Below, piece after piece: positions 24,122-60,313 of a stretch of DNA of 64,000 bases (positions are counted from its first letter, which is position 1; each line of letters begins with the position of its first letter). Below the pieces are notes generated by a model. That model was not told the origin of the DNA. It saw only the letters and a program-made list of their open reading frames with translations, and ran no database searches. Source of the DNA: Eledone cirrhosa (Eukaryota); contig OZ024740.1 of assembly GCA_964016885.1 (NCBI GenBank), positions 173,600,001-173,664,000 of the forward strand, given 5' to 3'. A program made the position numbers and the translations under genes.

Positions 24122-25204
24122 ATTTCAATAGGCAACATTGGGTAAGTACACATTTCTGGGTAAATTGATATTAAGTAATAACTCTATGCTTGTCTATTGG
24201 TTATAAGATTTGAGTAGAGCTTCTGTGGCATGTTCACTTCAATCTATTATCTTTTCAATTACAGTTTATGCTTAAAAGTTTCTTTCATTCTGTGTTAACC
24301 TATGGACGACATACTTTATTAAGTAAAGTTTTATCATTGCATTTTATTTGCTTCTATCAGTTTTACAATTTCCTTAATTCATGTGCAGTTGTTTTGCTTG
24401 TGGTTGTATTCACTCAGCTATTTATTGGCTGGGCTTATGGATTCATTTCTTTCCTTCTTAGGTTTGTTGGTTCATTAAATGCATGAAGGTTTCGAATTAA
24501 ATGATGATTGAGTCAGTTCAATTCTGGTAGTTGAGCTTAGGGTTAGAGATGATGCATGTCCTGAATTTGCAGGAGTTCCATGCAATTATGTAATTGGGTT
24601 ATAGTCACTGCAGATAATTATTACATAAAAACTACGTAATATGATGACTGCAGTCTGATGATGCATGGCATCACCATACTAGTGATTAGTTTGCAGGGAG
24701 GTAGGGACATAGAAACACGTGCGTAATTTAGCTCTTCCTTGTGCGATATGGATCTGATGTTTGTGTATGGTTTATGTTTGCTTGGATTCATGGTTGGTTT
24801 TGATTTAATCAGGATATATTTGCTCAAGTTAAAGCAACTGAGTCTTAAATACATACATATATACACAGACACACTCAAGCGTGAACCTAATACCAACACT
24901 GTTCGTAACTGCACTTATTTTTGTTTTTGTTTTTTACTTTTCCAATATATATATATATACATACATAGATACATACATACATTAGAAAGCTCTGTGACCA
25001 CCCTCTTGAACAACAAAGAGAGATATATTGTTATATTCATATGGAAGATCCTGAAAGAGCATGTTCTGAACTTTGGCATTAAAGAAAACGTTAATGCATG
25101 AACTGGTAGAGACTGCTAGCTTCCAAATATACTTTTGAAATGGTGAGCAAAAACATGTATTAATCTAGAGGTCATCAAGTTTTCAACTGTCTTACCTGAA
25201 GAAA

Positions 25205-26016
25205 TCATCATCATTGTTTTACATCCATTTTCCACACTAGCATGGGTTAGACGAGTTGTCTCGATGTGAGACAGCCAGATCGGAGGACCTTGTTTTGCGC
25301 ACACAGAACTGATTTGGGTTTGGTTTCTACAACTGGATGCTGTTAACAACAACCACATTTACAGTGTGTACTGTGTGCTTTTTGTTGTGATACCTACACA
25401 ACCACTTTACAGTATGGACTGGGCGCTTTTTATCGTGACTCCTACATGACCACTTCATAATGTGAGCTGGGCACTTTTTGCGGTGTTACCAACGCGCCCA
25501 CTTTACAGTGTGGGCTGGGTGCTTTATGGTGCGGATTGGGGACTTGGGTGGGGGGATGCATGCGGAATATGGGAGCTTCATATAGGGATGGAGTGGATGT
25601 GATTTCAACGTAGGAGGTGTTGCATATTAGATGTATGCCTCAGATCCCGCATATGGGCGTTTTCTGTGTTACTGCATAGCGCCAGAGATCAGTCCTGTGC
25701 CATCGCCTTTGAGAAGTGTAATTGTGCAAGGTCAACTTTTATCTCTTCATCTCAAGTGTTCCTAGCCTGCCCACTCCATAGCTTCCATCGACTGAGCGCT
25801 CTGCACCTTTTTATACAGCTGTCATCCTTCATACACATCACATGTCCATACCAATTCAATCTCCTCCCCTGCACACTGCATCTGATCCCTGTTATGCCTA
25901 ATTTCTCTCACAGTTTATGCTTTGTCATTCGCATAATTACTATTGCACATCCATCGAAGCATGGAGGCTTCATTGCTTTCCAATCTTCACAGGTCCTCTG
26001 CACACAGTGCCCAGGT
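25205..26016 (-). mobile_element. RTE LINE 3' fragment
   Basis: Homologous to 288-1340; (GAT)n tail. Confidence 0.8.
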
Positions 26017-42365: not shown

Positions 42366-45300
42366 CATCATCATCGTTTAACGCCCATCTTCCAAGCTTG
42401 CATGGGTTTGGACGGGAGTTTTCCCACTTGAGGCAAGAGTGGTTGTCTTGCTCGCATAGGACTGTCTGGCGGGTTTTCTACGGCTGGATGCCCTTCCTAA
42501 CACCAACCACGTTTACAGTGTGGACTGGGAGTTTTTTTTTGTCGTGATACCTACACGACCTCATTTGTTTCGGACTGGATGTTATGGTACTAACATAACT
42601 TTACATCGAATAGGGTGGTGTGGATGGGGTGGGGGTAGTGGGACGGGGGTGTATCTTTGTTAGAGGTGCCTACTGACTGTGGTAGGTTTCACTTTGTACT
42701 TAGGTAAGGTAGTTCTTCTGTATTACTGTGTAGCGCCAAAGATCTTGGTCCAGTGACATTGTCTTGGAGAGGTGTAAGTGTGTGAGGTCGGAATTTATCA
42801 AGTCGTCCCAGGTTTTTCTGGATCTGCCTACTCCGTGGCTACCGTCTATTTTTATCGCCCTGCACTTTTTTATACAGCTGTCGTCTTTCATGTGCATCAC
42901 GTGGCCGTACCAACGTAGTTTTCTCACGAGTAAACAGCATCTAATCCCTCTTATTTCTAATTTTTCCCTTAGTTCGTTTATGCTTTGCCGTTCGCGTATA
43001 TTACTATTACACATCCAGCGGAGCATGCAAGCTTCGTTCCTCTCTAGTCTGCGTATATCCTCTGCACACAATGCCCAGGTCTCACTGCCATGCAACATTG
43101 CTGTTCGTATGCAGGCATCATACAGCCTGCCTTTCATTTTTAGGGAGAACCTTTTAGCGGCTAATAGTGGTATAAGCTCTCTGAACTTTTTCCATCCAGT
43201 TCTGACTCTAGCTACTGTACTTTCAGAGCACCCTCCCCCACTGCTGATTTTGTCACCCAAGTAACGGAAAGTGTCCACTATTTCTATAGAACCATCTGTG
43301 CAATGGAATGAGCTAGTATTCTGTGGGCACTTGCTGCTACTTATTGCACCAGAGCACCGGCCACATAAAATCTATATTCTTAGTTAGCTTACCTGTGATC
43401 CCACTACATCTTTTATGCACCCATACTTTGCATTTGGGACATAAAATGGAGTTTCTGCCTACTCCTTTCCTACACACTGAGCATGGCCATTTCCCGGATG
43501 GGACCGGTGCCCTATTTTCCTTCCTACAAACTAGAACTTTAGTCTTAGACAGGTTAATTTTAAGGCCTTTTGATTCTAGGCCATGCTTCCATGTTTGGAA
43601 TTTCTTCTCTAGTTCAGCCATTGATTCAGCTATGAACATTAGATCATCTGCGTATAGGAGTTCCCATGGGCAGCCGGTCTTGAACTCCACTGTTATAGCC
43701 TGAAGGGCAATAATAAATAGTAGGGGGCTAAGAACGCCAATGAACACCAACTTTTACGCTAAACTCTTCACTATATTCATTGTTAATTCTAACCTTGCTG
43801 ACTGTTTCTTTATACATGGCTTGTATAGCTCTCACAAGCCATTCATCAACACCTAGTTTTCTAAGAGCCCACCAGATAATGGAACGAGGGACTCTGTCAA
43901 AGGCTTTCTCTAAGTCGACAAAAGCTAAGTATAGGGGTTTACTTTTAGCTAGGTACTTCTCCTGTAGTTGTCGTACAATGAAAAGAGCATCTGTAGTACT
44001 TTTACCTGACACAAACCCGAGCTGCATTTCATCTCGATCAATTCGCTCTCTGATTAGTTGCGCTATTACTTTTTCTGTGACCTTCATGGCCTGGTCGATT
44101 AATTTAATGCCTCTATAGTTACCCATATCTAGGGCATCTCCTTTACCCTTGTAGCAGTTAATGATGATGCTGCTACGCCAGTCCTTCGGAACAACCCCAT
44201 TCTGTATGACTTGGTTTACTATCCGGGTGACCATAGTGTGTCCTACCGTTCCAGATGCTTTCAGCATTTCAGCAACTATTTCCGAAGGCCCAGCCGCCTT
44301 ACCCGTCTTCATATATTTGATTGCCTTACTTATTATACTAGAGACTGTCTTTCTCCCATTTATTCTCCTCATTTAGTAGCTTTTCGTAGTGACACTTCCA
44401 AGCTACTTTCTTATCAGTATCAGTGATGGCAAGTACACCATCATCATTAAGGACACACTTCTCCCCGACAATATCACGGTTTTCCTTGACACATTGCCTA
44501 GCAATCCTGAACACCTCACGTTTTTGGTCCTCGCGTTGTAGAACATGCTTGAACTTTCTTTCCTCTGCTTCCCTTCTTGCGAAGTACACTTGTCTCCTAG
44601 CTTCCCTCCTGGCCACTTGATAGTCTTCTCTATTTCCCCCATCCCTCCATACTTTCCAAGCCTGCTTTTTGGCCTTAATTGACTCCTCCACCTTACTGTT
44701 CCACCACCACGTTACTCTCCTGCCTATAGGCCTGCTCCAGCTGCAGACTTCATCTGTCGCCATCAGCAGGTTTGCTTTCAGGAATTCCCACTGTTCCTCT
44801 ATATTGTACGACTCTAATTGCTCTTCCTTATTGTCGAAAGCATCAAGTAATATGCTTTTAAATTTATTACTGGCTGTGGGGTCCTTTAGCTTCCATATTT
44901 TTCTCCTGAGGATAGTCCTCTTCTGTTGTCAAGAACGTCTCGTCCTGACTATGAGGTCGCTAATTATGAGTCTATGTTGAGAGGTGCATTCTTCATGGGG
45001 GAGGGATTTAGTGTTTACAACAGACACTCTGTCACGTCTTCTGGTAAGGATATAATCTACCTGGCTGGTATGTTCCCCTGATCTGTAGGTGATCAAGTGA
45101 TTGTCTCGCTTTTTGAAGTTAGTGTTACAGATAGTTAGGTTATTTGCGTCACAGAATTCCAGGATTCTGGAGCCTTCCTCATTTCTAGTACCAAACCCAT
45201 AGCCTCCATGGATTCCGTCATAGCCGTCACAATGTTGTCCAACGTGACCATTTAGGTCGCCAGCAATAATTATATAGTCACTGTCGGTTATTTGGGAGGT

Positions 45301-45960
45301 AGTGAGCATCAGTGTCTCATAGAATCTGTCTTTTATAGCGCCAGGCAGTCTGGATTGGGGTGCGTACGCAGATATTACTGTCACAGTAGTTCTATTTAGA
45401 ACAAGTCTTATTTTAATTATTCTGTCATTCACTCTATTTACGTCTATTATCTTATCCACCCATTTTTCTGCTAACATGATTCCTACCCCACCCAGCCCAT
45501 TGTCATTTCCCACCCAGAAAAGCTTATAGCATCGTTTTTTACCCACAATGAATCTAGCAGACCCGCTCCTCCACCTGGTCTCTTGGATACAGCAAACATC
45601 AACCTCCTTACGTTCAAGCATTTCTACAACCTCGTTAGAGCAACCTTTTAAGGTGCCTACATTCATGGAACCAACTCTGAAGTTTTGGATTGCGTTTGGT
45701 GGGTGGGCCGCGGGGAGGGGTGAGGGGGATGGGGTTGGGGTTATGTTGACCATCCGCGGCCGAAACAAAGAGGAGGAGTCCTTGCCCTTTCGTCCGGCCG
45801 CATGAGGTGAATTTGTCGTTATCTTTGGCATTGACTCTGAGTGTCCAGATTCTTCAGACTCTCCAGAATTCCTTAGTCCATCCATCATATTGAAAAGCAA
45901 CCAGAAGTGATAGCATAGGCCACTGACTTATGATTGGTCCAAATAATAATGGTGGAGAGT
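42366..45960 (-). mobile_element. Near full-length RTE-clade LINE (APE endonuclease + RT), frameshifted
   Basis: APE motifs (SMNVGTL, CIQETRW, SAYAPQ, AGDLNGHVG, VDYIL) at 44929-45900. RT motifs (NYRGIKL, AFVDLEKAFDRV, LLYADDL, FRYLGD) at 42700-44372. (GAT)n tail. ORF split into five pieces. Confidence 0.95.
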
Positions 45961-45999
45961 GGGGCGGGCGGGAGGGGTATGGCGCAGTTAGCGAGCGAG

Positions 46000-46296
46000 G
46001 AGAAGGTTTTAAATAAAGCATATAACAGTAACAAGCGATATACTGGGATTTTAAAATACACAAGATTATTTAGAACAGCCAGACAGAATTATAGAATAGC
46101 ATTGAGAAAGTAGGATTGGATCCTGGGCGATTATACAGATATATGGATGAATGAACCGAAGGGTGGGGAGACAAGAAGAAAATAGTATTTTTACATTACA
46201 TTTCGTAGAAGTGGACTGACTATTAATAAGAGTTGACAAATTCTGAGATTCGTACCTCGTAACAGGTTAATTTATATTTGGTGCGAGTAGGGAATG

Positions 46297-46343
<47 letters not shown>

Positions 46344-46669
46344 AACAGGCACGTATGTGATAAAGAGGGGGGGGGGGTGACAGAGATTTAGAGGGACTAG
46401 GGAGGCCATTTTTATGAATCCTGGAAAATTTCGGCCAAAATTAAGATTAAGCGAAGAGAAGGTTTTAAATAAAGCATATAACAGTAACAAGCGATATACT
46501 GGGATTTTAAAATACACAAGATTATTTAGAACAGCCAGACAGAATTATAGAATAGCATTGAGAAAGTAGGATTGGATTCTAGGCGATTATACAGATATAT
46601 GGATGAATGAACCGAAGGGTGGGGAGACAAGAAGAAAATGGTATTTTTACATTACATTTCGTAGAAGTG
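46000..46669. repeat. 214-bp direct repeat (46000-46213 and 46456-46669) flanking a (GA)n tract
   Basis: gagaaggttttaaataaagc...tttcgtagaagtg occurs twice with only a few mismatches. Confidence 0.9.
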
Positions 46670-46748
46670 TATATATGAATGTATATATATATATATATAT
46701 GTATGTGTATATATATAGATGTAATCTGAATTTTATAGATGTAATCTG

Positions 46749-47816
46749 AATAGTATGGTAGAATATTAAGTTTTAAATGTTAATTGAACAAGTAATTTCA
46801 TGCTTTCGCAATCTTCAGGTTCATATTCTGTGGTGACCGTCAAGTTTGCAATTTTCAACTGTAATGAGATGGGTAAATTTTGTGCCTTATATACAGTGAA
46901 AAGCGGCTACAGAATGCTAAATTTTGCAAACTGTATTTCGACCAATTGGTGTGTAGTTTCACTGGATTACTGAAGCTGATTGGTTTAGGCGTCATGGTTG
47001 GTTGAGCATGTCTAACAACTTCTATTTGGCTCTATCCAAAGCATCAATTGTTTTGCTATTTTTAGAAATGATGTAAATAGCATTTTCTAGGGTTTTTATA
47101 CCCATAAGAATTATTATTGTTCATTTAGCTTGGGTTGGAATTTATGAATAACATTCTTTTCTTTGATTTTTCTCTTGATTTCACTTGGCCTGTGTAATTT
47201 GTAGAATGGAAATATTATAAATATTTTCTGACCACATGTTGCTAGATGGTTACTCAGGGGTATCTGACGGACATTTGGGTCACTGATTTGCTGTCGGTGC
47301 ACCCGTGCACGTTCCGATAGTGCATTTCCAGTTTGACCGACATATAGTTCTTCACAATTCGGGCATTTGATGCAGTAAATTAGATTTCTGCTTTTTCAGT
47401 TCATATTTGCATTTGGGAATATTTTTAAAAATTCCAACCCAAGCTAAATGAACAATAATAATTCTTAAGGGTATAAAAACCCTAGAAAATGCTATTTTCA
47501 TCATTTCTAAAAATAGCAAAACAATTGATGCTTTGAATAGGGCCAAATAGAAGTCGTTAGACATGCCCAACCAACCATGATGCCTAAACCAATCAGCTTC
47601 AGTAATCCAGTGAAACTACACACCGATTGGTCGAAATACAGTTTGCAAAATTTAGCATTCTGTAGCCGCTTTTCACTGTATATAAGGCACAAAATTTACC
47701 CATCTCATTACAGTTGAAAATTGTAAACTTGACTGTCACCACAGAATATGAACCTGAAGATTGCGAAAGCATGAAATTACTTGTTCAATTAACACTTAAT
47801 ATTCTACCATGCTATT
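46749..47816 (-). mobile_element. Penelope-like element (Neptune-type) 3' fragment with inverted pseudo-LTRs
   Basis: ~390-bp inverted repeats (46749-47143 / 47429-47816). The minus strand encodes GIY-YIG SRNLIYCIKCPNCEELYVGQTGNALSERARVHRQQI...FQPKLN. Confidence 0.88.
46785..46823 (-). ncRNA. Minimal hammerhead-like motif in the Penelope pLTR (second copy 47749-47787 +)
   Basis: UGAAC-CUGAAGA-U-UGC(GAAA)GCA-U-GAAA-UUAC-UU-GUUCA; sense to the GIY-YIG ORF. Confidence 0.65.
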
Positions 47817-48142
47817 TCATTCTAATACCATTATAATTTTAAAGGATTGTAAATAAAATGAGTAAATCAGACAAAGTTGGAATTCCTTTTACTAATATAA
47901 TCTTCTATACACAATCATACACACCTGTGTATATTTATTTATATATATATATAGCTTTTAAGCTATTTTGTAGTATCTCTGTTCAGGAACACACCACTTA
48001 TATTAAATTTATCTCCTTGGAGCTTTGTAAAAGTCTGAGAGATTGGCTACATATATGTTTTATATATTTTTTTTTGTTTAGATGGAAGACAAAACAAAGA
48101 AGATGAATACAAAGATGAAGAAGAGAAAGATAAAGATGAAGA

Positions 48143-49855: not shown

Positions 49856-50421
49856 CTATTCGACTGTTTTCTATTTCGTAGGTATGTCCAGTTACAGTAA
49901 GAGAAAGAAAGTTATTTCAAAGGATCTGAGTAAGTAAACACTTCATTCATTGACCATCATTTTAAGCAGAATCTCAGTGTAGTTTTAAATTGACCTTTTC
50001 ATATGATTACACCTCAGTCTTAACTTAATCACCTGTAGATGGATGCTACATGTAATGTTAAAATTAGTTAAACACTGTTTCCCCCTTCTCATCACATGTG
50101 GATGCTACATGTGTATTGTTAACATTAATCTAACGTTGTCCCCCCTCCTCTGCCTCACCATATCATACCACACCACATCACACCATGTTGTACCACACCA
50201 GACCACATAACACCATGCTATACCATATATATATATATATAGAGAGAGAGAGAATTAGTACATCTACCAACATATGTGTACAGATGTACACTCATGCTAG
50301 CAAATATATAAGTTATGTCTTAGTACCTATGTGGTTCTATGCAGGTGAATGCAGAACAATTATATGAAAGACGTAAAATAAGAAAATTTTAAAAATTAAG
50401 AATCAACTTACTAAAATTTTC

Positions 50422-50507
50422 ACTCCAACTAATTAGTTTCTGTAATGGGATAAATATAGTTACATAATATATATAACTATAGAGAATTCATTACGTCATC
50501 AGGGAGT
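50422..50507 (-). ncRNA. Type I hammerhead ribozyme (identical inverted copy)
   Basis: Reverse complement of 50968-51053. Confidence 0.8.
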
Positions 50508-50967
50508 CTATTCTCAGCTAAGTTCCCAGGCAATGCGCGGACACTAGGAACCCATATAAAAATAATAATTCAGTAGATGGAATGAAGCTAGCGAGGACTA
50601 AATTCCGGAGCACTGAAAAAATTTCACTGCCTCTGGTCAGTGGCAGATTCTAAAGAATCAATCACGTGACACCGAGGTTAATCAGTTAGGAGCGGGGTGG
50701 TATTATGACAAGAGCCTACTACTACTATGAAACAGCAGTAAATTTTGGCAAGTTTTGCTCAACAAATAATTTGGAGATAAATATAGAGAATTAGTACATC
50801 TACCAACATATGTGTACAGATGTACACTCATGCTAGCAAATATATAAGTTATGTCTTAGTACCTATGTGGTTCTATGCAGGTGAATGCAGAACAATTATA
50901 TGAAAGACGTAAAATAAGAAAATTTAAAAAATTAAAAATCAACTTACTTACTAAAAGCTGAGAATAG

Positions 50968-51053
50968 ACTCCCTGATGACGTAATGAATTCTCTATAGTT
51001 ATATATATTATGTAACTATATTTATCCCATTACAGAAACTAATTAGTTGGAGT
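50968..51053 (+). ncRNA. Type I hammerhead ribozyme
   Basis: Stem I ACUCC/GGAGU, CUGAUGA (50973-79), stem II GUAAUG/CAUUAC with an extended AU hairpin, GAAA (51035-38), palindromic stem III CUAAUUAG, GUU cleavage triplet. Confidence 0.8.
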
Positions 51054-51074
51054 GAAAATTTTAGTAATTACGTC

Positions 51075-51119
<45 letters not shown>

Positions 51120-51191
51120 CTCTCCACTCGTTATATTAACTGTATCTCCTCGGTGTTTCGTGAAAGTCTGAGAGATCAGCTATATATTTGT

Positions 51192-51628
51192 GTGGGCCCC
51201 GTTTGTGAGACGAACCTTTCCCAGACTCGTCTCACTCACCGAGCTGCAATCCTAGGTCAAGCAAAGACCAAGAAAACTGGGTGCCTGGCACACTGAGTGT
51301 GCCCAGGCGCTCACGGCCCTCTGGCAGGTGGACCCTGTTATCAGTGGAGACTCCACCGCGACATTCTATAGATGGGCCTTCTCTCTACATCAGCCTGTAG
51401 GTGGAAAAAAGGAAGGAACGAGGGAGCACCCTCTCTCTGTGCTCCTGAGGAGAAGGGGTTGCACACTTTTTCAGGGGTGTGTGCGACCCCCCCAAACGCC
51501 CCCTCCCTATTGAGGACTTTATTGTTAATTTTATATTTGTTATTTGTTTTCTTTACTCGCCTTTTTGTGTAAACTCCCCCCTTGTATTTGTCCCCTTCTT
51601 TTGCGCCCTAGTGGCAATAAATAGAAAT
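51192..51628 (+). mobile_element. 437-bp insertion with a 12-bp target-site duplication (probable truncated LINE 3' end)
   Basis: ctatatatttgt at 51180-51191 and 51629-51640; AATAAA near the 3' end; empty-site paralogue at ~48020-48110. Confidence 0.7.
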
Positions 51629-53820: not shown

Positions 53821-53886
53821 ATATGTTCCTGTGGAAAGTCGGGTCTTCTGTATTACTGTGTGACCCAATTGGGAAAGGTCGGCTTA

Positions 53887-54445
53887 GAAATATTTACTTC
53901 TGCGTTCACAGATTGATTTTTTTTTTTATTTCAGAAGATCCCATTAAGGGTGAAAGCAGTCGATTCTTTGCTTAAACTTTAATCTGTTATTTTAATAAAT
54001 ATTTGCTCTACGGTTCTTATATATTTGATATATATTTATCCTTATCGAGCCCTCTTTGGATGTTAGTCTTCAAATTTATTATTATTACTATTTGGCTCCC
54101 TTGACTGAGTACTCTATTGACTTATATTCATCATGCAGAAACATCTGAATATTTCTACAAAGAACATACCCGTACCAAGCAGGAAGAAATACCTAAAACT
54201 ACGTCTCCACGAACCAAAGTATCGCCTTCCTGTCTTCCTTCGGTTGCAACGTTTTTCGAAATATTTACTTCTGCGTTCACAGATTGATTTTTTTTTTTTT
54301 ATTTCAGAAGATCCCATTAAGGGTGAAAGCAGCCGATTCTTTGCTTAAACTTTAATCTGTTATTTTAATAAATATTTGCTCTACGGTTCTTATATAATTG
54401 ATATATATTTATCCCTATCGAGTCCTCTTTGGATTTTAGTCTTCA
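53887..54445. repeat. Partial tandem duplication, period ~371 bp
   Basis: gaaatatttacttctgcgttcacag... begins at 53887 and 54258; followed by (TA)n. Confidence 0.9.
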
Positions 54446-54458
54446 TATGTATTATTAT

Positions 54459-54514
<56 letters not shown>

Positions 54515-54838: not shown

Positions 54839-56559
54839 TGTGTGGTACCAAAGGTCCCGGCTTCCACATCTGAAATCAGGAGCAGCTATTGCAATAGCCT
54901 GGGGTTCAAAGGCCCTCAACTTGGTTTTCAAAATTTAAATTTGTGTTTCCTATTCATCAATGCTTCAAGCAAGCTATAAAACTCTGTTATATTTCATCAT
55001 CATCATTTTATGTCAGTTCTTCTACGCTAGCATGGGTTGTCCTGTTGTGGGCAGTGTCTGGTCGGCTGACCTTGTCTTGCTCAATTCTCACACTGGGTGA
55101 TGTGTTTCCTTGAGCAAGACACTTTATTTCACATTGCTTCAGTTTACTCAGCTGTAGAAATGAGATGATAGGACTGGGGTCCCCATCTTTCCACTGCAAA
55201 GTGCTCGTGGAGGTGCCACGGGGAAAAAAGCACCCAGCACTCACTGTAAATGAGGTTGGTGTTAGGAAGGGCATCCAGCTGTAGAAATCAAGCCAGAATC
55301 AGTTCCCGTCCCACCCTTGCAAGCAGGGAAAAAGTGGACGTAAAAGGAAATGATGAATGCTCCCAGCTGTGGTCACCCCCATAGTATGAAACTACCTATG
55401 GAGCTTGAAGCAATCCAAAGAAGCTACACCAAGAAGGTTGCCACGATGGAGATAAACTACTGGGAGAGTCTAAAAGAACTGAAACTCTACTCCTCCGAAT
55501 GAAGACGGGAGAGATATGCAATGATATACATATGGAACGCATTGAGAGCTGGACCAATTCTCAAACAGGACGTCACTGTGTGGTACCAAAGGTCCCGTCT
55601 TCCACATCTGAAATCAGGAGCAGCTATTGCAATAGCCTGGGGTTCAAAGGCCCTCAACTTGGTTTTCAAAATTTAAATTTGTGTTTCCTATTCATCAATG
55701 CTTCAAGCAAGCTATAAAACTCTGTTATATTTCATCATCATCATTTTATGTCAGTTCTTCTACGCTAGCATGGGTTGTCCTGTTGTGGGCAGTGTCTGGT
55801 CGGCTGACCTTGTCTTGCTCAATTCTCACACTGGGTGATGTGTTTCCTTGAGCAAGACACTTTATTTCACATTGCTTCAGTTTACTCAGCTGTAGAAATG
55901 AGATGATAGGACTGGGGTCCCCATCTTTCCACTGCAAAGTGCTCGTGGAGGTGCCACGGGGAAAAAAGCACCCAGCACTCACTGTAAATGAGGTTGGTGT
56001 TAGGAAGGGCATCCAGCTGTAGAAATCAAGCCAGAATCAGTTCCCGTCCCACCCTTGCAAGCAGGGAAAAAGTGGACGTAAAAGGAAATGATGAATGCTC
56101 CCAGCTGTGGTCACCCCCATAGTATGAAACTACCTATGGAGCTTGAAGCAATCCAAAGAAGCTACACCAAGAAGGTTGCCACGATGGAGATAAACTACTG
56201 GGAGAGTCTAAAAGAACTGAAACTCTACTCCTCCGAATGAAGACGGGAGAGATATGCAATGATATACATATGGAACGCATTGAGAGCTGGACCAATTCTC
56301 AAACAGGACGTCACTGTGTGGTACCAAAGGTCCCGTCTTCCACATCTAAAATCAGGAGCAGCTATTGCAATAGCCTGGGGTTCAAAGGCCCTCAACTTGG
56401 TTTTCAAAATTTAAATTTGTGTTTCCTATTCATCAATGCTTCAAGCAAGCTATAAAACTCTGTTATATTTCATCATCATCATTTTATGTCAGTTCTTCTA
56501 CGCTAGCATGGGTTGTCCTCTTGTGGGCAGTGTCCGGTCGGCTGACCTTGTCTTGCTCA
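54839..56559. repeat. Near-identical 738-bp tandem duplication (~2.3 copies) of SINE/LINE fragments
   Basis: Identical ORFs offset by 738 nt (55008/55746, 55487/56225). Confidence 0.95.
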
Positions 56560-57505
56560 TACGGGAACTGATTCTGTCTTGATTTCTACTGCTGGATGCC
56601 CTTCCTAATGCTAAGCTCATTTACAATGAGTACTGGATGTTTTTTGTTGTGATTCCTCCACGACTACTTTACAGTGTGGACTGGGTGTTTTTTACGGTGT
56701 CACCATCACGACCACTTTACAGTGTTTTAGCCTATTCTCATGAAAGATATATTGGCGGGTGGGATGGAGTGGTGCATACTGTATGTATGTTTCAGCCTTC
56801 GCCTGGGCTCATGGGAAGTTGGGGTTTCTGTATTACCTCATAATGCCAGAGATCTTGGTCCTGTGTCATTGCCTTTCAGAGGTGCAATTGGGCAAGGTCG
56901 GCTTTTATCACTTCATCTCAAGTCTTTCTGGGACTTTATGTAGCTGTCATCCTTCATACGAATCACATGTCCATACCAACATAATCTCCTCTCCTGCACA
57001 CAACATTTGATTCCTCTTATGCCTAGTTTCTCTTTCAGTTTGTTTATGCTTTGCTGTTCACATATATTACTATTACACATCCATCGGAGCATACAAGCTT
57101 CATTCCTTTCTAATCTACGCAAGTCTTCTACACAGCGCCCAGCTCTCACTACCATGCAACATTGCCGTTCATATGCACGCATCATACAGACTACCTTTTA
57201 TTCTGAGGGAAAAGCCTTTTGTATCCAGCTGTGGCAGTAGCTCCCTCAACTTCTTCCATCCCGTTCTTTCAGAACCCCCCCCCCCCCACCCTGATGCTAA
57301 TTAGGTATTGTTTTTACCAAGTCCTCCCAGACTTTGATGTCACTTGTTTTCAGTGATTGTTTGCTGCTTACTGTCCTGGTGCAACTGCTACATGTAAAGC
57401 CTACATTCTTAACTAAACTTCCTGAGATCCCACTACATCTCTTGTGTACCCATAGTTTGCATATGGGGAAGAGGATGGAGTTTCTACCTACCCCTCTCCT
57501 ACATA
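56470..57505 (-). mobile_element. RTE LINE 3' fragment
   Basis: LRRLERNEACMLRWMC...WYGHV and Cys-rich insert; (GAT)n tail. Confidence 0.88.
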
Positions 57506-58570: not shown

Positions 58571-60313
58571 TGAAAATATGTGACGTCATTCGTCAACCTT
58601 CCCTACTTTCATTTCTGACAGCTAATACCATGAACTGTATTTTTACAGTTCATGGTATTATTAGCTGTCAGAAGTGAAAGTAGGGGAAGGTTGACGAATG
58701 ACGTCACATATTTTCATAGTTATGGTTATCAATATAAAAAAAACAAGTCATTTTCACCAATAGTGGTAGTTAACTTAAATGAAAATATAGGTGGCCCTTA
58801 AAAGGGCCAAATTATGGTTATCAAATTTTTTTGCACCAACCCTATATATTTATGAAGAAATGTTTAGAAAACAAATTATTTTCACCAACCTTATTCAAAA
58901 GCATGGATACAGTGCCCATGGAGACAAGCGACAATCCCCACCAATCAGCAACAATCATCACCAACACCACGTGTAAATAAATAAACTTTAATCTTCACTT
59001 TGTGATAATACACGCATCTGCAAGTTGAAAAATGAGTTCTATAATATATCCAAGTGTTAAGGGAATTAACCATCGCTACCGCTACTATAGCAGATACCGT
59101 CAATTGGTTGAAAATTCAAGGACTTCTGAATACACAAAAGGTCTGCCCTTCATGTGGTCAACGTATGTTGGAAGTAGCGAAACAAAATGTGTCAGATGGG
59201 ATTATCTGGTCATGTAGAAAACAGGTTTCTATTAGAAAAGGCACATTTTTAGAAAATAGCAATTTGAAGTGTGAACAAATAGTTGATATATAATATTTTT
59301 GGGCAAAAGAAGATTTCAGAGGTATGTCGTATCGCGAATGTGTCCGTAGCAGATTGGCGAAATTTTTGCCGTGATGTAGGTGCAGAGTACTATGTGGCAC
59401 AAAACATTAAGCTTGGCGGGCCAAACCGAATTGTCGAGATTGATGAAAGCGCATTCGTGAGAAGGAAATACCATCGTTGCCATTCTGTGAAACACTGGGT
59501 TTTTGGTGTTTTGGAAAGAAGTACCAGAAGATGTATTTTAGTAGCAGTAGAAGACAGGACAGCGGAAACACTTTCAACCATTATACAGGATCGTATACTG
59601 CCAGGGACAACATAAATATCTGATCTATGGCGTTCCTATAATACGATCGATCAGCTAGGCTATCAACATTTGACGGTGAACCATTCGATCAATTTTGTTG
59701 ATTCAGTAACATTTGCCACAACGAATCACATAGAATGCTTGTGGAAACACGTAAAAAATAGGAATAAAAGGTAAAACGGGACAGCCAGAAATTTGCTTCA
59801 AACCTATCTCATTGAATTCATGTGGCGGTATGAATTTAAAGGAGAAATTTTCAAAAAGTTATTAGAACATATCCGTCATCTGATTCCATGCATTTGAATA
59901 AGGTTGGTGAAAAAAATGTTTCTAAACATGCTTTTGAATAAGGTTGTTGAATAATGAAAATATAAATGAATAAATCAAATTTATTTGATAACCATGACTT
60001 GTTTTCTAATTAACTTTAATTTGTTTTCTAATTTGGCCCTTTTAAGGGCCACCTATATTTTCATTTAAGTAACTCCACTTACATCGATATGCTTTATAAC
60101 CATGACTTGTTTTCTAATTTGGCCCTTTTATGTCTTCCCTCTCTCTCCTCTTCCCCTCTAACTCCCCTCCGCCTCTCTCTCTCTCCAAACAACGCGTGAA
60201 AACTCCACTTACGCGTGGTAGTAATACGGAAATAAACGATGTTTGACGAGTGACGCCACCTTCGCCTGTTTCCATCGGCTGCTTGGACTGACAGCTAATA
60301 GCGTTGTAGTGCC
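58570..60313 (+). mobile_element. Merlin (IS1595/ISXO2-like) DNA transposon with long imperfect inverted repeats
   Basis: Transposase remnant flanked by inverted blocks (58770-58815 / 60028-60073 and 58880-58908 / 59886-59912). Confidence 0.8.
59032..59898 (+). pseudogene. Merlin/ISXO2-like DDE transposase with stops and frameshifts
   Basis: CPSC zinc-ribbon, GGPNRIVEIDES, WVFG..ER, ILPGT..SD.WRSY, HLTVNHS.NFVD, TNHIE.LW, YLIEFMWR. Confidence 0.9.

What the first reader, a model, noticed from the sequence alone, without database searches (positions are those of the whole stretch)
50249..51080. Structurally complete hammerhead ribozyme in a non-coding ~536-bp retrozyme-like element
Seen: ACUCC-CUGAUGA-C-GUAAUG[long AU hairpin]CAUUAC-A-GAAA-CUAAUUAG-UU-GGAGU at 50968-51053 (+), with an identical copy at 50422-50507 (-). 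The element has a 536-bp-offset direct repeat plus a terminal inversion, sits between (TA)n tracts and has no recognisable ORF. Established: Penelope-like elements and animal non-LTR retrozymes carry type I HHRs with short palindromic stem III; PLEs integrate as partial tandems with inverted 5' segments. Inference: a non-autonomous, self-cleaving, possibly circRNA-forming mobile family mobilised by PLE enzymes. The ~50-nt branched stem II and the C.A mismatch closing stem II are atypical. The identical copies suggest a young insertion.
Basis: partly seen in the sequence, partly recalled or inferred. Interest (0 to 1): 0.85.

Follow-up and report, generated by a model that had tools for sequence, protein, structure and literature searches.

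The report
Long-armed hammerhead in Penelope-type mobile repeat
A 536-base non-coding repeat with many diverged copies in a likely animal genome carries a hammerhead self-cutting RNA motif with an unusually long arm and lies here between TA runs in the tandem-plus-inverted layout of Penelope-like retrotransposons, whose enzymes likely copy it, perhaps through a circular RNA; cutting and circles are untested.

Summary
The motif is real. A complete type I hammerhead fold lies at 50507-50422(-), with an identical copy at 50968-51053(+); a strict descriptor gave 0 hits in 200 shuffled windows. The element's sense is the minus strand: a 536-nt ORF-free unit (50784-50249), 164 nt of a second round, and a head-to-head inverted fragment, which is the + copy. 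TA runs lie on both sides. Public reads show many diverged copies, and one contig from another organism label crosses the same unit boundary. This fits a non-autonomous Penelope-like element (PLE) working like an animal non-LTR retrozyme, a described class. Unusual features: a long interrupted stem II that Rfam misses, a split duplicate of the unit's boundary inside that stem, and an upstream 15-nt strand predicted to pair across the cleavage site. That strand could block the ribozyme and splint the cut ends. Limits: this locus has one hammerhead per strand, so it cannot excise a monomer itself. Cleavage, circles and the partner element are untested, and covariation evidence is thin. Verdict: new variant of a known kind.

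The parts
50249..50784 (-). 536-nt unit (sense = minus strand): 5' region M, hammerhead H, 3' region A; 34% GC; no ORF
   Evidence: period; frames; fold z -6.4 sense vs -1.9 antisense
50422..50507 (-). Type I hammerhead fold in its natural context; predicted cut between U50427 and G50426
50448..50488 (-). 41-nt stem II insert: 7x7 internal loop plus AU hairpin; its two ends are 11-nt exact copies of the two halves of the unit boundary
   Evidence: 0 of 20000 shuffles give such a split pair
50679..50693 (-). 15-nt strand predicted to pair with stem III and the 3' strand of stem I, with one unpaired U (50688) opposite the scissile bond: candidate blocker and ligation splint
   Evidence: (-15.6 kcal/mol; 10 of 2000 shuffles as strong)
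50253..50306 (-). Long hairpin just inside the 3' end of the unit
   Evidence: the 4 listed family substitutions in it all keep pairing, each by a one-sided change
50785..50948 (-). Second, partial round of the unit (region A): pseudo-LTR-like direct repeat
50956..51067 (+). Head-to-head inverted fragment holding the second hammerhead (50968-51053), 100% identical to 50519-50408
51068..51083 (+). End of the inverted copy: 16 nt matching 50376-50361 after a 31-nt gap, ending in a TA-like motif that runs into the microsatellite
   Evidence: and sequence
50226..50253 (.). Left boundary (TA)8(GA)6; the internal boundary copy has only two TA and two GA steps
51079..51116 (.). Right boundary (AT)19

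Best explanation
This is one fairly recent insertion of a multi-copy, non-coding 536-nt repeat with a hammerhead fold, likely mobilised in trans by Penelope-like (possibly Neptune-type) enzymes from an RNA that is predicted to self-cleave and circularise. Shown: the fold, the 1.3-unit partial tandem, the head-to-head inverted fragment, TA boundaries, many diverged copies, and the same unit boundary in another copy. Inferred cycle: (1) a source locus with two or more same-strand units is transcribed on the minus strand. (2) The hammerhead folds locally during synthesis and cuts after GUU. (3) The upstream 15-nt strand then pairs across both cut ends, holding them together for a ligase and keeping the circle from recutting. 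(4) A GIY-YIG endonuclease nicks (TA)n, the RT starts at the UA-rich boundary motif about 178 nt 3' of the cut, and copies more than once round, giving the partial tandem. (5) A second priming or fold-back adds the inverted fragment. My odds: non-autonomous and PLE-mobilised about 0.85; hammerhead active in the family about 0.7; circular intermediate about 0.55; blocker/splint role about 0.4.
For: Fold and chance test. Layout matches PLE descriptions: partial tandem, adjacent inverted 5'-truncated copy, microsatellite targets. No ORF. Family: in the organism-A RAD run X13, 10,320 of 12,467,656 reads were laid on 49950-51350, only 165 at 99% or more; element bins 50279-50936 have depth 38-1256 against 0.7-37 in the left flank. 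Contig record 17 (run X6, organism C, depth 2.4) reads M-end, A, H, M-start across the unit boundary with 69 and 159 letters either side; it has 20 differences in 226 letters over M-end/A but 1 in 159 over H and the adjoining M hairpin. Overlapping contigs tile M, and a divergent variant replaces 95 letters by 94, keeping length. Loose ends show stem II arms GCAAUG (X1) and CAUUGC (X6), which would be a compensatory pair, and both extra nucleotides kept. Strand-asymmetric folding. Blocker: active fold costs 3.0 kcal/mol alone, 6.6 in the unit, 3.1 when the strand is barred from pairing; stem I forms when pair span is limited to 250 nt or less. [quoted passage not shown]
Against: One hammerhead per strand here, and no full dimer was seen in any listed contig. 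No Rfam match. Of 22 listed family substitutions, 5 break a predicted pair against 8.3 +/- 2.0 expected (P about 0.08, not significant); the breaks include a common change in stem II (50446) whose partner change is not among the rows shown (295 rows were not displayed). The two 'compensatory' arms come from different contigs. 3 of 21 control windows fold at z -4.6 or lower. The proposed loop I-loop II pseudoknot is not significant (2713 of 20000 shuffles). No sequence similarity to the neighbouring PLE's 3' region. In the one purified PLE system, hammerhead cleavage was not needed for insertion and RT start sites were not homologous to the target. Only 1 of 9 Xenopus retrozyme dimers cleaved in vitro. 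In eggplant latent viroid, distorting the duplex round the ligation site did not impair ligation (abstract). The inversion junction of this locus was not bridged by any listed contig.
Confidence: 0.62

Rival explanations
1. Same non-autonomous PLE derivative, but copied from linear, uncleaved RNA. The partial tandem comes from RT re-priming on linear templates, and the hammerhead is slow, protein-dependent or a structured cis signal with no circle involved.
For: PAc inserts without hammerhead cleavage. 8 of 9 Xenopus dimers did not cleave. The active fold is penalised in the full unit. Extra A before GAAA; GUU triplet (slower than GUC, recalled); no canonical loop contacts.
Against: Complete core with a 3-bp stem III, unlike minimal PLE hammerheads. 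A fixed unit boundary shared between copies. A strand whose unpaired base falls exactly at the scissile bond makes most sense if the bond is cut and rejoined.
Confidence: 0.25
2. The unit is only the pseudo-LTR / 3' end of an autonomous PLE, and this locus is a truncated insertion of it.
For: Retrozyme families are homologous to PLE pLTRs (24 of 57 Xenopus families). PLE copies are mostly 5'-truncated. No genome was available to exclude it.
Against: No coding remnant in the unit. The M|A boundary is crossed by other copies, including organism C, and M is tiled without a break or inserted ORF. No likeness to the neighbouring PLE's 3' region or, by eye, to the Octopus Naiad 3' ends in the Craig supplement.
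Confidence: 0.1
3. Chance motif, or an assembly fold-back artefact.
For: The inverted arm is 100% identical, and this locus's inversion junction is not bridged.
Against: 0 hits in 200 shuffled windows. The family exists in independent runs. The inverted copy has its own 31-nt gap and TA end. A neighbouring PLE has the same layout with 94.6% identical arms.
Confidence: 0.03

Closest known systems
Animal non-LTR retrozymes (Cervera and de la Pena 2020, PMC7229834; Li, Clavereau and Pollet 2026, bioRxiv 10.64898/2026.07.22.740005)
   Same: Non-coding, under 50% GC, type I hammerhead, strongly self-paired, multi-copy, co-occurring with PLEs; 536 nt lies within the 51-972 bp range of Li et al.
   Different: Longer than the 150-450 bp of Cervera; not an array at this locus; stem II carries a 41-nt insert instead of a small loop; ribozyme predicted to be self-blocked, which Cervera reports for plant retrozymes and viroids but not for most metazoan circles (some mussel ones excepted).
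Penelope-like elements, Neptune/Penelope type (PMC8557442, PMC3846280, PMC11167929) and their minimal hammerheads (PMC4209133)
   Same: Partial tandem, head-to-head inverted 5' copy overlapping the direct repeat, two different 3' ends, microsatellite target, extra nucleotide after A9 with G10.1-C11.1, palindromic stem III.
   Different: No RT or GIY-YIG; full 3-bp stem III; the two 3' ends differ by 112 nt rather than a 30-40-bp tail; an additional A before GAAA.
Hammerhead viroids and plant LTR retrozymes (as summarised in PMC7229834; PMC5895719 abstract)
   Same: Ribozyme strand sequestered by a complementary strand, with the ligation site in an interrupted duplex (here predicted).
   Different: Genomic, type I, one polarity only, no LTR layout; no evidence of RNA-to-RNA replication.
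Type I hammerheads with longer helix II (mycoviruses, PMC13725137)
   Same: 6-bp helix II, no canonical loop-loop contacts.
   Different: Those are capped by a tetraloop; here a 7x7 internal loop and a further 11-12-bp hairpin follow.

Membership tests
Type I hammerhead ribozyme | Core CUGANGA, GAAA and UH in order | tested here: met
Type I hammerhead ribozyme | Three helices round the core, stem I open | tested here: met
   5, 6 and 3 bp; stems I and II at P about 0.99 in isolation, stem III about 0.11
Type I hammerhead ribozyme | Covariation of stems across copies | tested here: inconclusive
   one apparent compensatory pair from two different contigs; one uncompensated stem II change among rows shown
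Type I hammerhead ribozyme | Site-specific self-cleavage | not testable with these tools
   needs in vitro assay
Canonical metazoan type I hammerhead (6-bp helix I, 4-bp helix II, loop 1-loop 2 contacts) | Canonical helix sizes and small loop 2; match to Rfam models | tested here: not met
   41-nt insert; no Rfam match; substitute pseudoknot not significant. Filed as a variant, not as canonical.
Animal non-LTR retrozyme | Short non-coding, low-GC unit with a type I hammerhead | tested here: met
   536 nt, 34% GC, longest open frame 50 codons
Animal non-LTR retrozyme | Many genomic copies | tested here: met
   no copy number can be given
Animal non-LTR retrozyme | Two or more consecutive same-strand units, each with a hammerhead, at this locus | tested here: not met
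   1.3 units, one hammerhead per strand. This copy is not filed as an active retrozyme.
Animal non-LTR retrozyme | Such multimers elsewhere in the family | tested here: inconclusive
   unit boundary crossed by other copies, but no listed contig spans two hammerheads; no genome
Animal non-LTR retrozyme | Highly self-paired RNA | tested here: met
   circle z -5.8, antisense -1.5; 3 of 21 control windows also at -4.6 or lower
Animal non-LTR retrozyme | Expressed as linear and circular monomers | not testable with these tools
   needs RNA data or northern blot
Penelope-like element insertion | Partial tandem forming a pseudo-LTR | tested here: met
Penelope-like element insertion | Adjacent head-to-head inverted 5'-truncated copy | tested here: met
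   layout as
Penelope-like element insertion | Microsatellite target bias | tested here: inconclusive
   TA on both sides at this one locus; one search skipped the repeat ends, so other copies' flanks and the empty site were not seen
Penelope-like element insertion | 30-40-bp optional tail | tested here: inconclusive
   the two 3' ends differ by 112 nt
Autonomous PLE | RT plus GIY-YIG ORF | tested here: not met
Non-autonomous derivative of a named PLE family | Terminal homology to an autonomous partner | tested here: inconclusive
   none with the single neighbouring PLE; genome-wide test not possible

The most novel reading that the evidence does not exclude
An animal retrozyme with a built-in three-state switch. 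The hammerhead cuts only during synthesis; an internal strand then splints the cut ends with one unpaired base at the nick and locks the circle; and the long stem II displays a second copy of the reverse-transcription start motif, so the Penelope enzyme would bind the ribozyme itself and couple cleavage to copying. Long-armed hammerheads of this sort would be a layer that Rfam and short-stem descriptors miss.
Probability: 0.2. Interest if true: 0.78.

Novelty: new variant of a known kind. Interest (0 to 1): 0.5.

Why it matters
How circles of animal retrozymes avoid recutting, and how PLE enzymes recognise them, are stated open questions (PMC7229834, PMC7761336). This unit offers two small, mutable candidates in one 536-nt RNA: a strand pairing across the cleavage site, and a duplicated start motif inside stem II. 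One locus also shows a retrozyme-like unit with the full PLE insertion signature, which fits the PLE-mobilisation model otherwise resting on co-occurrence and pLTR homology. Rfam misses the motif, so censuses may undercount such ribozymes. The class itself is known.

Tried and rejected
No whole genome is held, so no copy count, arrays or partner search. Run search: no RNA holder listed; this says nothing about expression. 12 of 15 listed rows hold part of the stretch; I laid 4 of the 15 (X1, X13, X5, X6), and the unlaid small shares are not used. Read starts and ends at 50485, 50647 and 50789 in X13 fall at or near AATT and are taken as restriction ends (enzyme identity recalled), not biology. 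Summed contig depth was not used as copy number; the 3,346 X1 contigs include the flanking repeat at 51172-51350. Metagenome pattern scan: 6 loci, none similar to the unit and none with stem I, so chance hits, all 6 dropped. Viral and prokaryote pattern scans: 0 hits. Rfam: no hammerhead; mir-297/mir-1277 hits are TA runs. No tRNA in the window. Stem I-stem II pseudoknot: not significant. The 9-bp inverted repeat round the + hammerhead arises from the overlap of the two copies and is not part of the natural stem I. Octopus Naiad consensus 3' ends did not resemble the unit by eye, and one 12-letter motif search of that supplement gave 0. No covariance model was built: only two identical copies were in hand. 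No earlier finding matched by sequence or place. The supplement of PMC7229834 could not be read and bioRxiv supplements are closed; either could list a similar hammerhead.

Full report
OBSERVATION. A structure scan of both strands of the 64-kb window returns the same hammerhead at 50968-51053(+) and 50507-50422(-): stem I 5 bp, CUGAUGA, 55 nt, GAAA, stem III 3 bp, GUU. The relaxed scan gave one further weak hit near 45857. The strict descriptor gave 0 hits in 200 block-shuffled windows. The 55 nt are an extra C, a 6-bp helix, a 7x7 internal loop, an 11-12-bp AU hairpin and an extra A; this is a long interrupted helix, not a branch. Stem III lies in a 10-nt palindrome. Rfam finds no hammerhead, on 6 kb at E<=5 or on 141 nt at E<=10.

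ANATOMY. The direct repeat (50249-50412 / 50785-50948, offset 536, 2 substitutions) and the inverted arms (50408-50519 / 50956-51067, identical) resolve on the minus strand. Read 5' to 3': (TA)n, an inverted fragment, 164 nt of region A, then one whole unit M-H-A (50784-50249), then (CT)6(AT)8. The inverted fragment is the + hammerhead followed, after a 31-nt gap, by 16 nt of A that end in a TA-like motif and run into (AT)19. Both sense 3' ends therefore stop at UA-rich motifs that resemble the target. The unit has no ORF (longest open frame 50 codons) and 34% GC. It folds at z -6.4 in sense and -1.9 in antisense; as a circle -5.8 and -1.5. 3 of 21 control windows reach -4.6 or lower, so the strand asymmetry carries more weight than the score. 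There is one hammerhead per strand. This copy cannot release a monomer by two cuts, and a read-through transcript would likely pair its 112-nt arms (inference).

FAMILY. No genome is held. Of 15 listed runs, 12 hold part of the stretch; I laid four. In RAD run X13 of organism A, 10,320 of 12,467,656 reads were laid: 165 at 99% or more, 941 at 95-99, 3,613 at 90-95, 5,601 below 90. Depth in element bins 50279-50936 is 38-1256 against 0.7-37 in the left flank; RAD depth depends on cut sites, and the total includes a flanking repeat. At many sites most reads differ from the window, so this copy belongs to a minority subfamily of an older family. Runs labelled organisms B and C hold it too. Record 17 (X6, one contig, depth 2.4) reads M-end, A, H, M-start across the unit boundary, with 20 differences in 226 letters over M-end/A and 1 in 159 over H and the adjoining hairpin. 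Overlapping contigs tile M, and a divergent variant swaps 95 letters for 94. So the 536-nt unit is a stable entity, not a one-off truncation of a coding element. Whether B and C are related species or mixed samples cannot be told. No listed contig spans two hammerheads, the empty site or this locus's inversion junction.

COVARIATION. Thin. Loose ends show stem II arms GCAAUG (X1) and CAUUGC (X6), which would pair, with both extra nucleotides kept, but they come from different contigs. Length variation falls in the TA hairpin (4-nt deletions at 50467-50469). Of the 22 distinct substitutions listed inside the element, 9 are at unpaired sites, 8 keep the pair and 5 break it, against 8.3 +/- 2.0 breaks expected (P about 0.08). 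One break is in stem II (50446). 295 rows were not displayed, so partner changes may be hidden.

First, a 15-nt strand at 50693-50679 is predicted to pair with stem III and the 3' strand of stem I, leaving one U unpaired exactly opposite the scissile bond (-15.6 kcal/mol; 10 of 2000 shuffles of M as strong; a post hoc test). It raises the cost of the active fold from about 3.0 to 6.6 kcal/mol, and barring it restores 3.1. Stem I forms if pairing is limited to 250 nt or less, which suggests a window for cutting during synthesis. In the cut monomer it holds both ends at P 0.55-0.87. The common variants there either improve an outer pair (50693) or widen the gap at the nick (50687; loose ends at 50686). 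Cervera and de la Pena say most metazoan retrozyme circles are not self-blocked, unlike plant retrozymes and viroids. Against a ligation role, distorting the equivalent duplex in eggplant latent viroid did not impair ligation. Second, the two ends of the stem II insert are 11-nt exact copies of the two halves of the unit boundary; 406 of 20,000 shuffles share one 11-mer and 0 share such a split pair. It may be a second binding or start site for the RT, or a fossil of how the arm arose. In the X6 variant the pyrimidine loop is kept while the adjoining helix letters differ. A 6-bp pairing between that loop and the strand 5' of stem I is possible but not significant (2,713 of 20,000).

MOBILISER. 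Partial tandems, an adjacent head-to-head inverted 5' copy overlapping the direct repeat, and microsatellite targets are described PLE traits. Three kb away, 46714-47929 has the same layout round a GIY-YIG remnant (Pfam E 9e-7). Its 3 longer relatives carry RT, and 2 of them a C-terminal GIY-YIG; P0002 has a CX4CxxC linker, the motif linked to Neptune microsatellite targeting. A suitable enzyme class is thus present in this genome, but its 3' region shows no similarity to the unit, so the partner is not identified. The host is likely an animal, from the RTE and C-terminal GIY-YIG PLE content (inference).

MECHANISM. Most likely: a multimeric source is transcribed, cut during synthesis, splinted and ligated; a PLE enzyme nicks (TA)n, starts at the boundary motif, copies more than once round, and a second priming or fold-back adds the inverted piece (0.62). 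More-than-unit copying from a circle is the published model. Rival: linear uncleaved templates (0.25), since PAc inserts without cleavage and 8 of 9 Xenopus dimers were inactive. Rival: merely the end of an autonomous PLE (0.10). Artefact (0.03).

COMPARISON AND NOVELTY. It works like an animal non-LTR retrozyme and has the insertion signature of a non-autonomous PLE. This copy fails the two-unit criterion of Li et al., so membership of the family rests on multimers and circles not yet seen. Mismatches at the base of stem II have precedents, as do 6-8-bp helices II, and Craig et al. noted core halves 35-50 nt apart in some Naiads. I found no description of this family or of this stem II in searches of an open-access library; subscription papers, Repbase/Dfam and two supplements were not seen. 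Verdict: new variant of a known kind, interest 0.5.

PAPERS SEEN. bioRxiv 10.64898/2026.07.22.740005: parts 1-3 of 5. PMC8557442: passages, supplement searches, supplement part 24 of 59. PMC11167929: parts 1-2 of 4. PMC7229834: parts 2-4 of 6, supplement unreadable. PMC4209133: parts 1-2 of 4. PMC3088659, PMC7761336, PMC13725137, PMC3846280: passages. PMC5895719: abstract. Recalled, from no call: GUU cleaving slower than GUC; an AATT-cutting RAD enzyme; the Merlin/IS1595 label under Noticed in passing.

Noticed in passing
window 46714-47929: TA-flanked PLE remnant: 408-bp inverted arms (94.6%) round a GIY-YIG C-terminal frame (47114-47395, minus; Pfam E 9e-7), likely Neptune-type. A minimal hammerhead-like core (CUGAAGA, 4 nt, GAAA) lies near 47754-47768(+); fold not significant, no Rfam match.
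   Followed up: partly
window 53884-54464: Another non-coding partial tandem (period 371, 95%) ending in (TA)n. Both copies have a hammerhead-like three-helix layout near 53909-53985(+) but with core CAGAAGA (U4 to A). No Rfam match. It shares an 11-nt AT-rich word with the stem II insert, possibly by chance.
   Followed up: partly
window 45994-46669: Partial tandem (period 456, 220-bp repeat, 98%) ending in a TA array and holding (GA)21; no hammerhead found by the scan.
   Followed up: no
window 58768-58813 and 60030-60074: The two Rfam Histone3 hits face each other as inverted ends round a decayed transposase-like stretch; likely a Merlin/IS1595-type DNA transposon remnant (label recalled, not tested), not histone genes.
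   Followed up: no
window 42700-45927 (minus): Near full-length, broken RTE-type LINE: endonuclease (Pfam E 3.5e-10) and RT (E 5e-13) frames; further fragments near 300-1340, 25200-26000 and 56470-57500.
   Followed up: partly
window 51117-51191 and 47993-48058: The right flank of the element and that of the PLE remnant are two copies of the same host repeat (81%), each preceded by a TA run: two insertions beside the same kind of site.
   Followed up: partly
window 50520-50563 (run X1): One contig joins 50563 to 50955, which reads as another copy folding back at the hairpin 5' of the hammerhead, with its inverted piece starting where this locus's does; a possible RT stop hotspot. Single contig, weak.
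   Followed up: no
window 51172-51350: A separate multi-copy repeat, covered in all four laid runs; not identified.
   Followed up: no
window 54839-56559: Tandem duplication with period 738, 99.6% identical.
   Followed up: no
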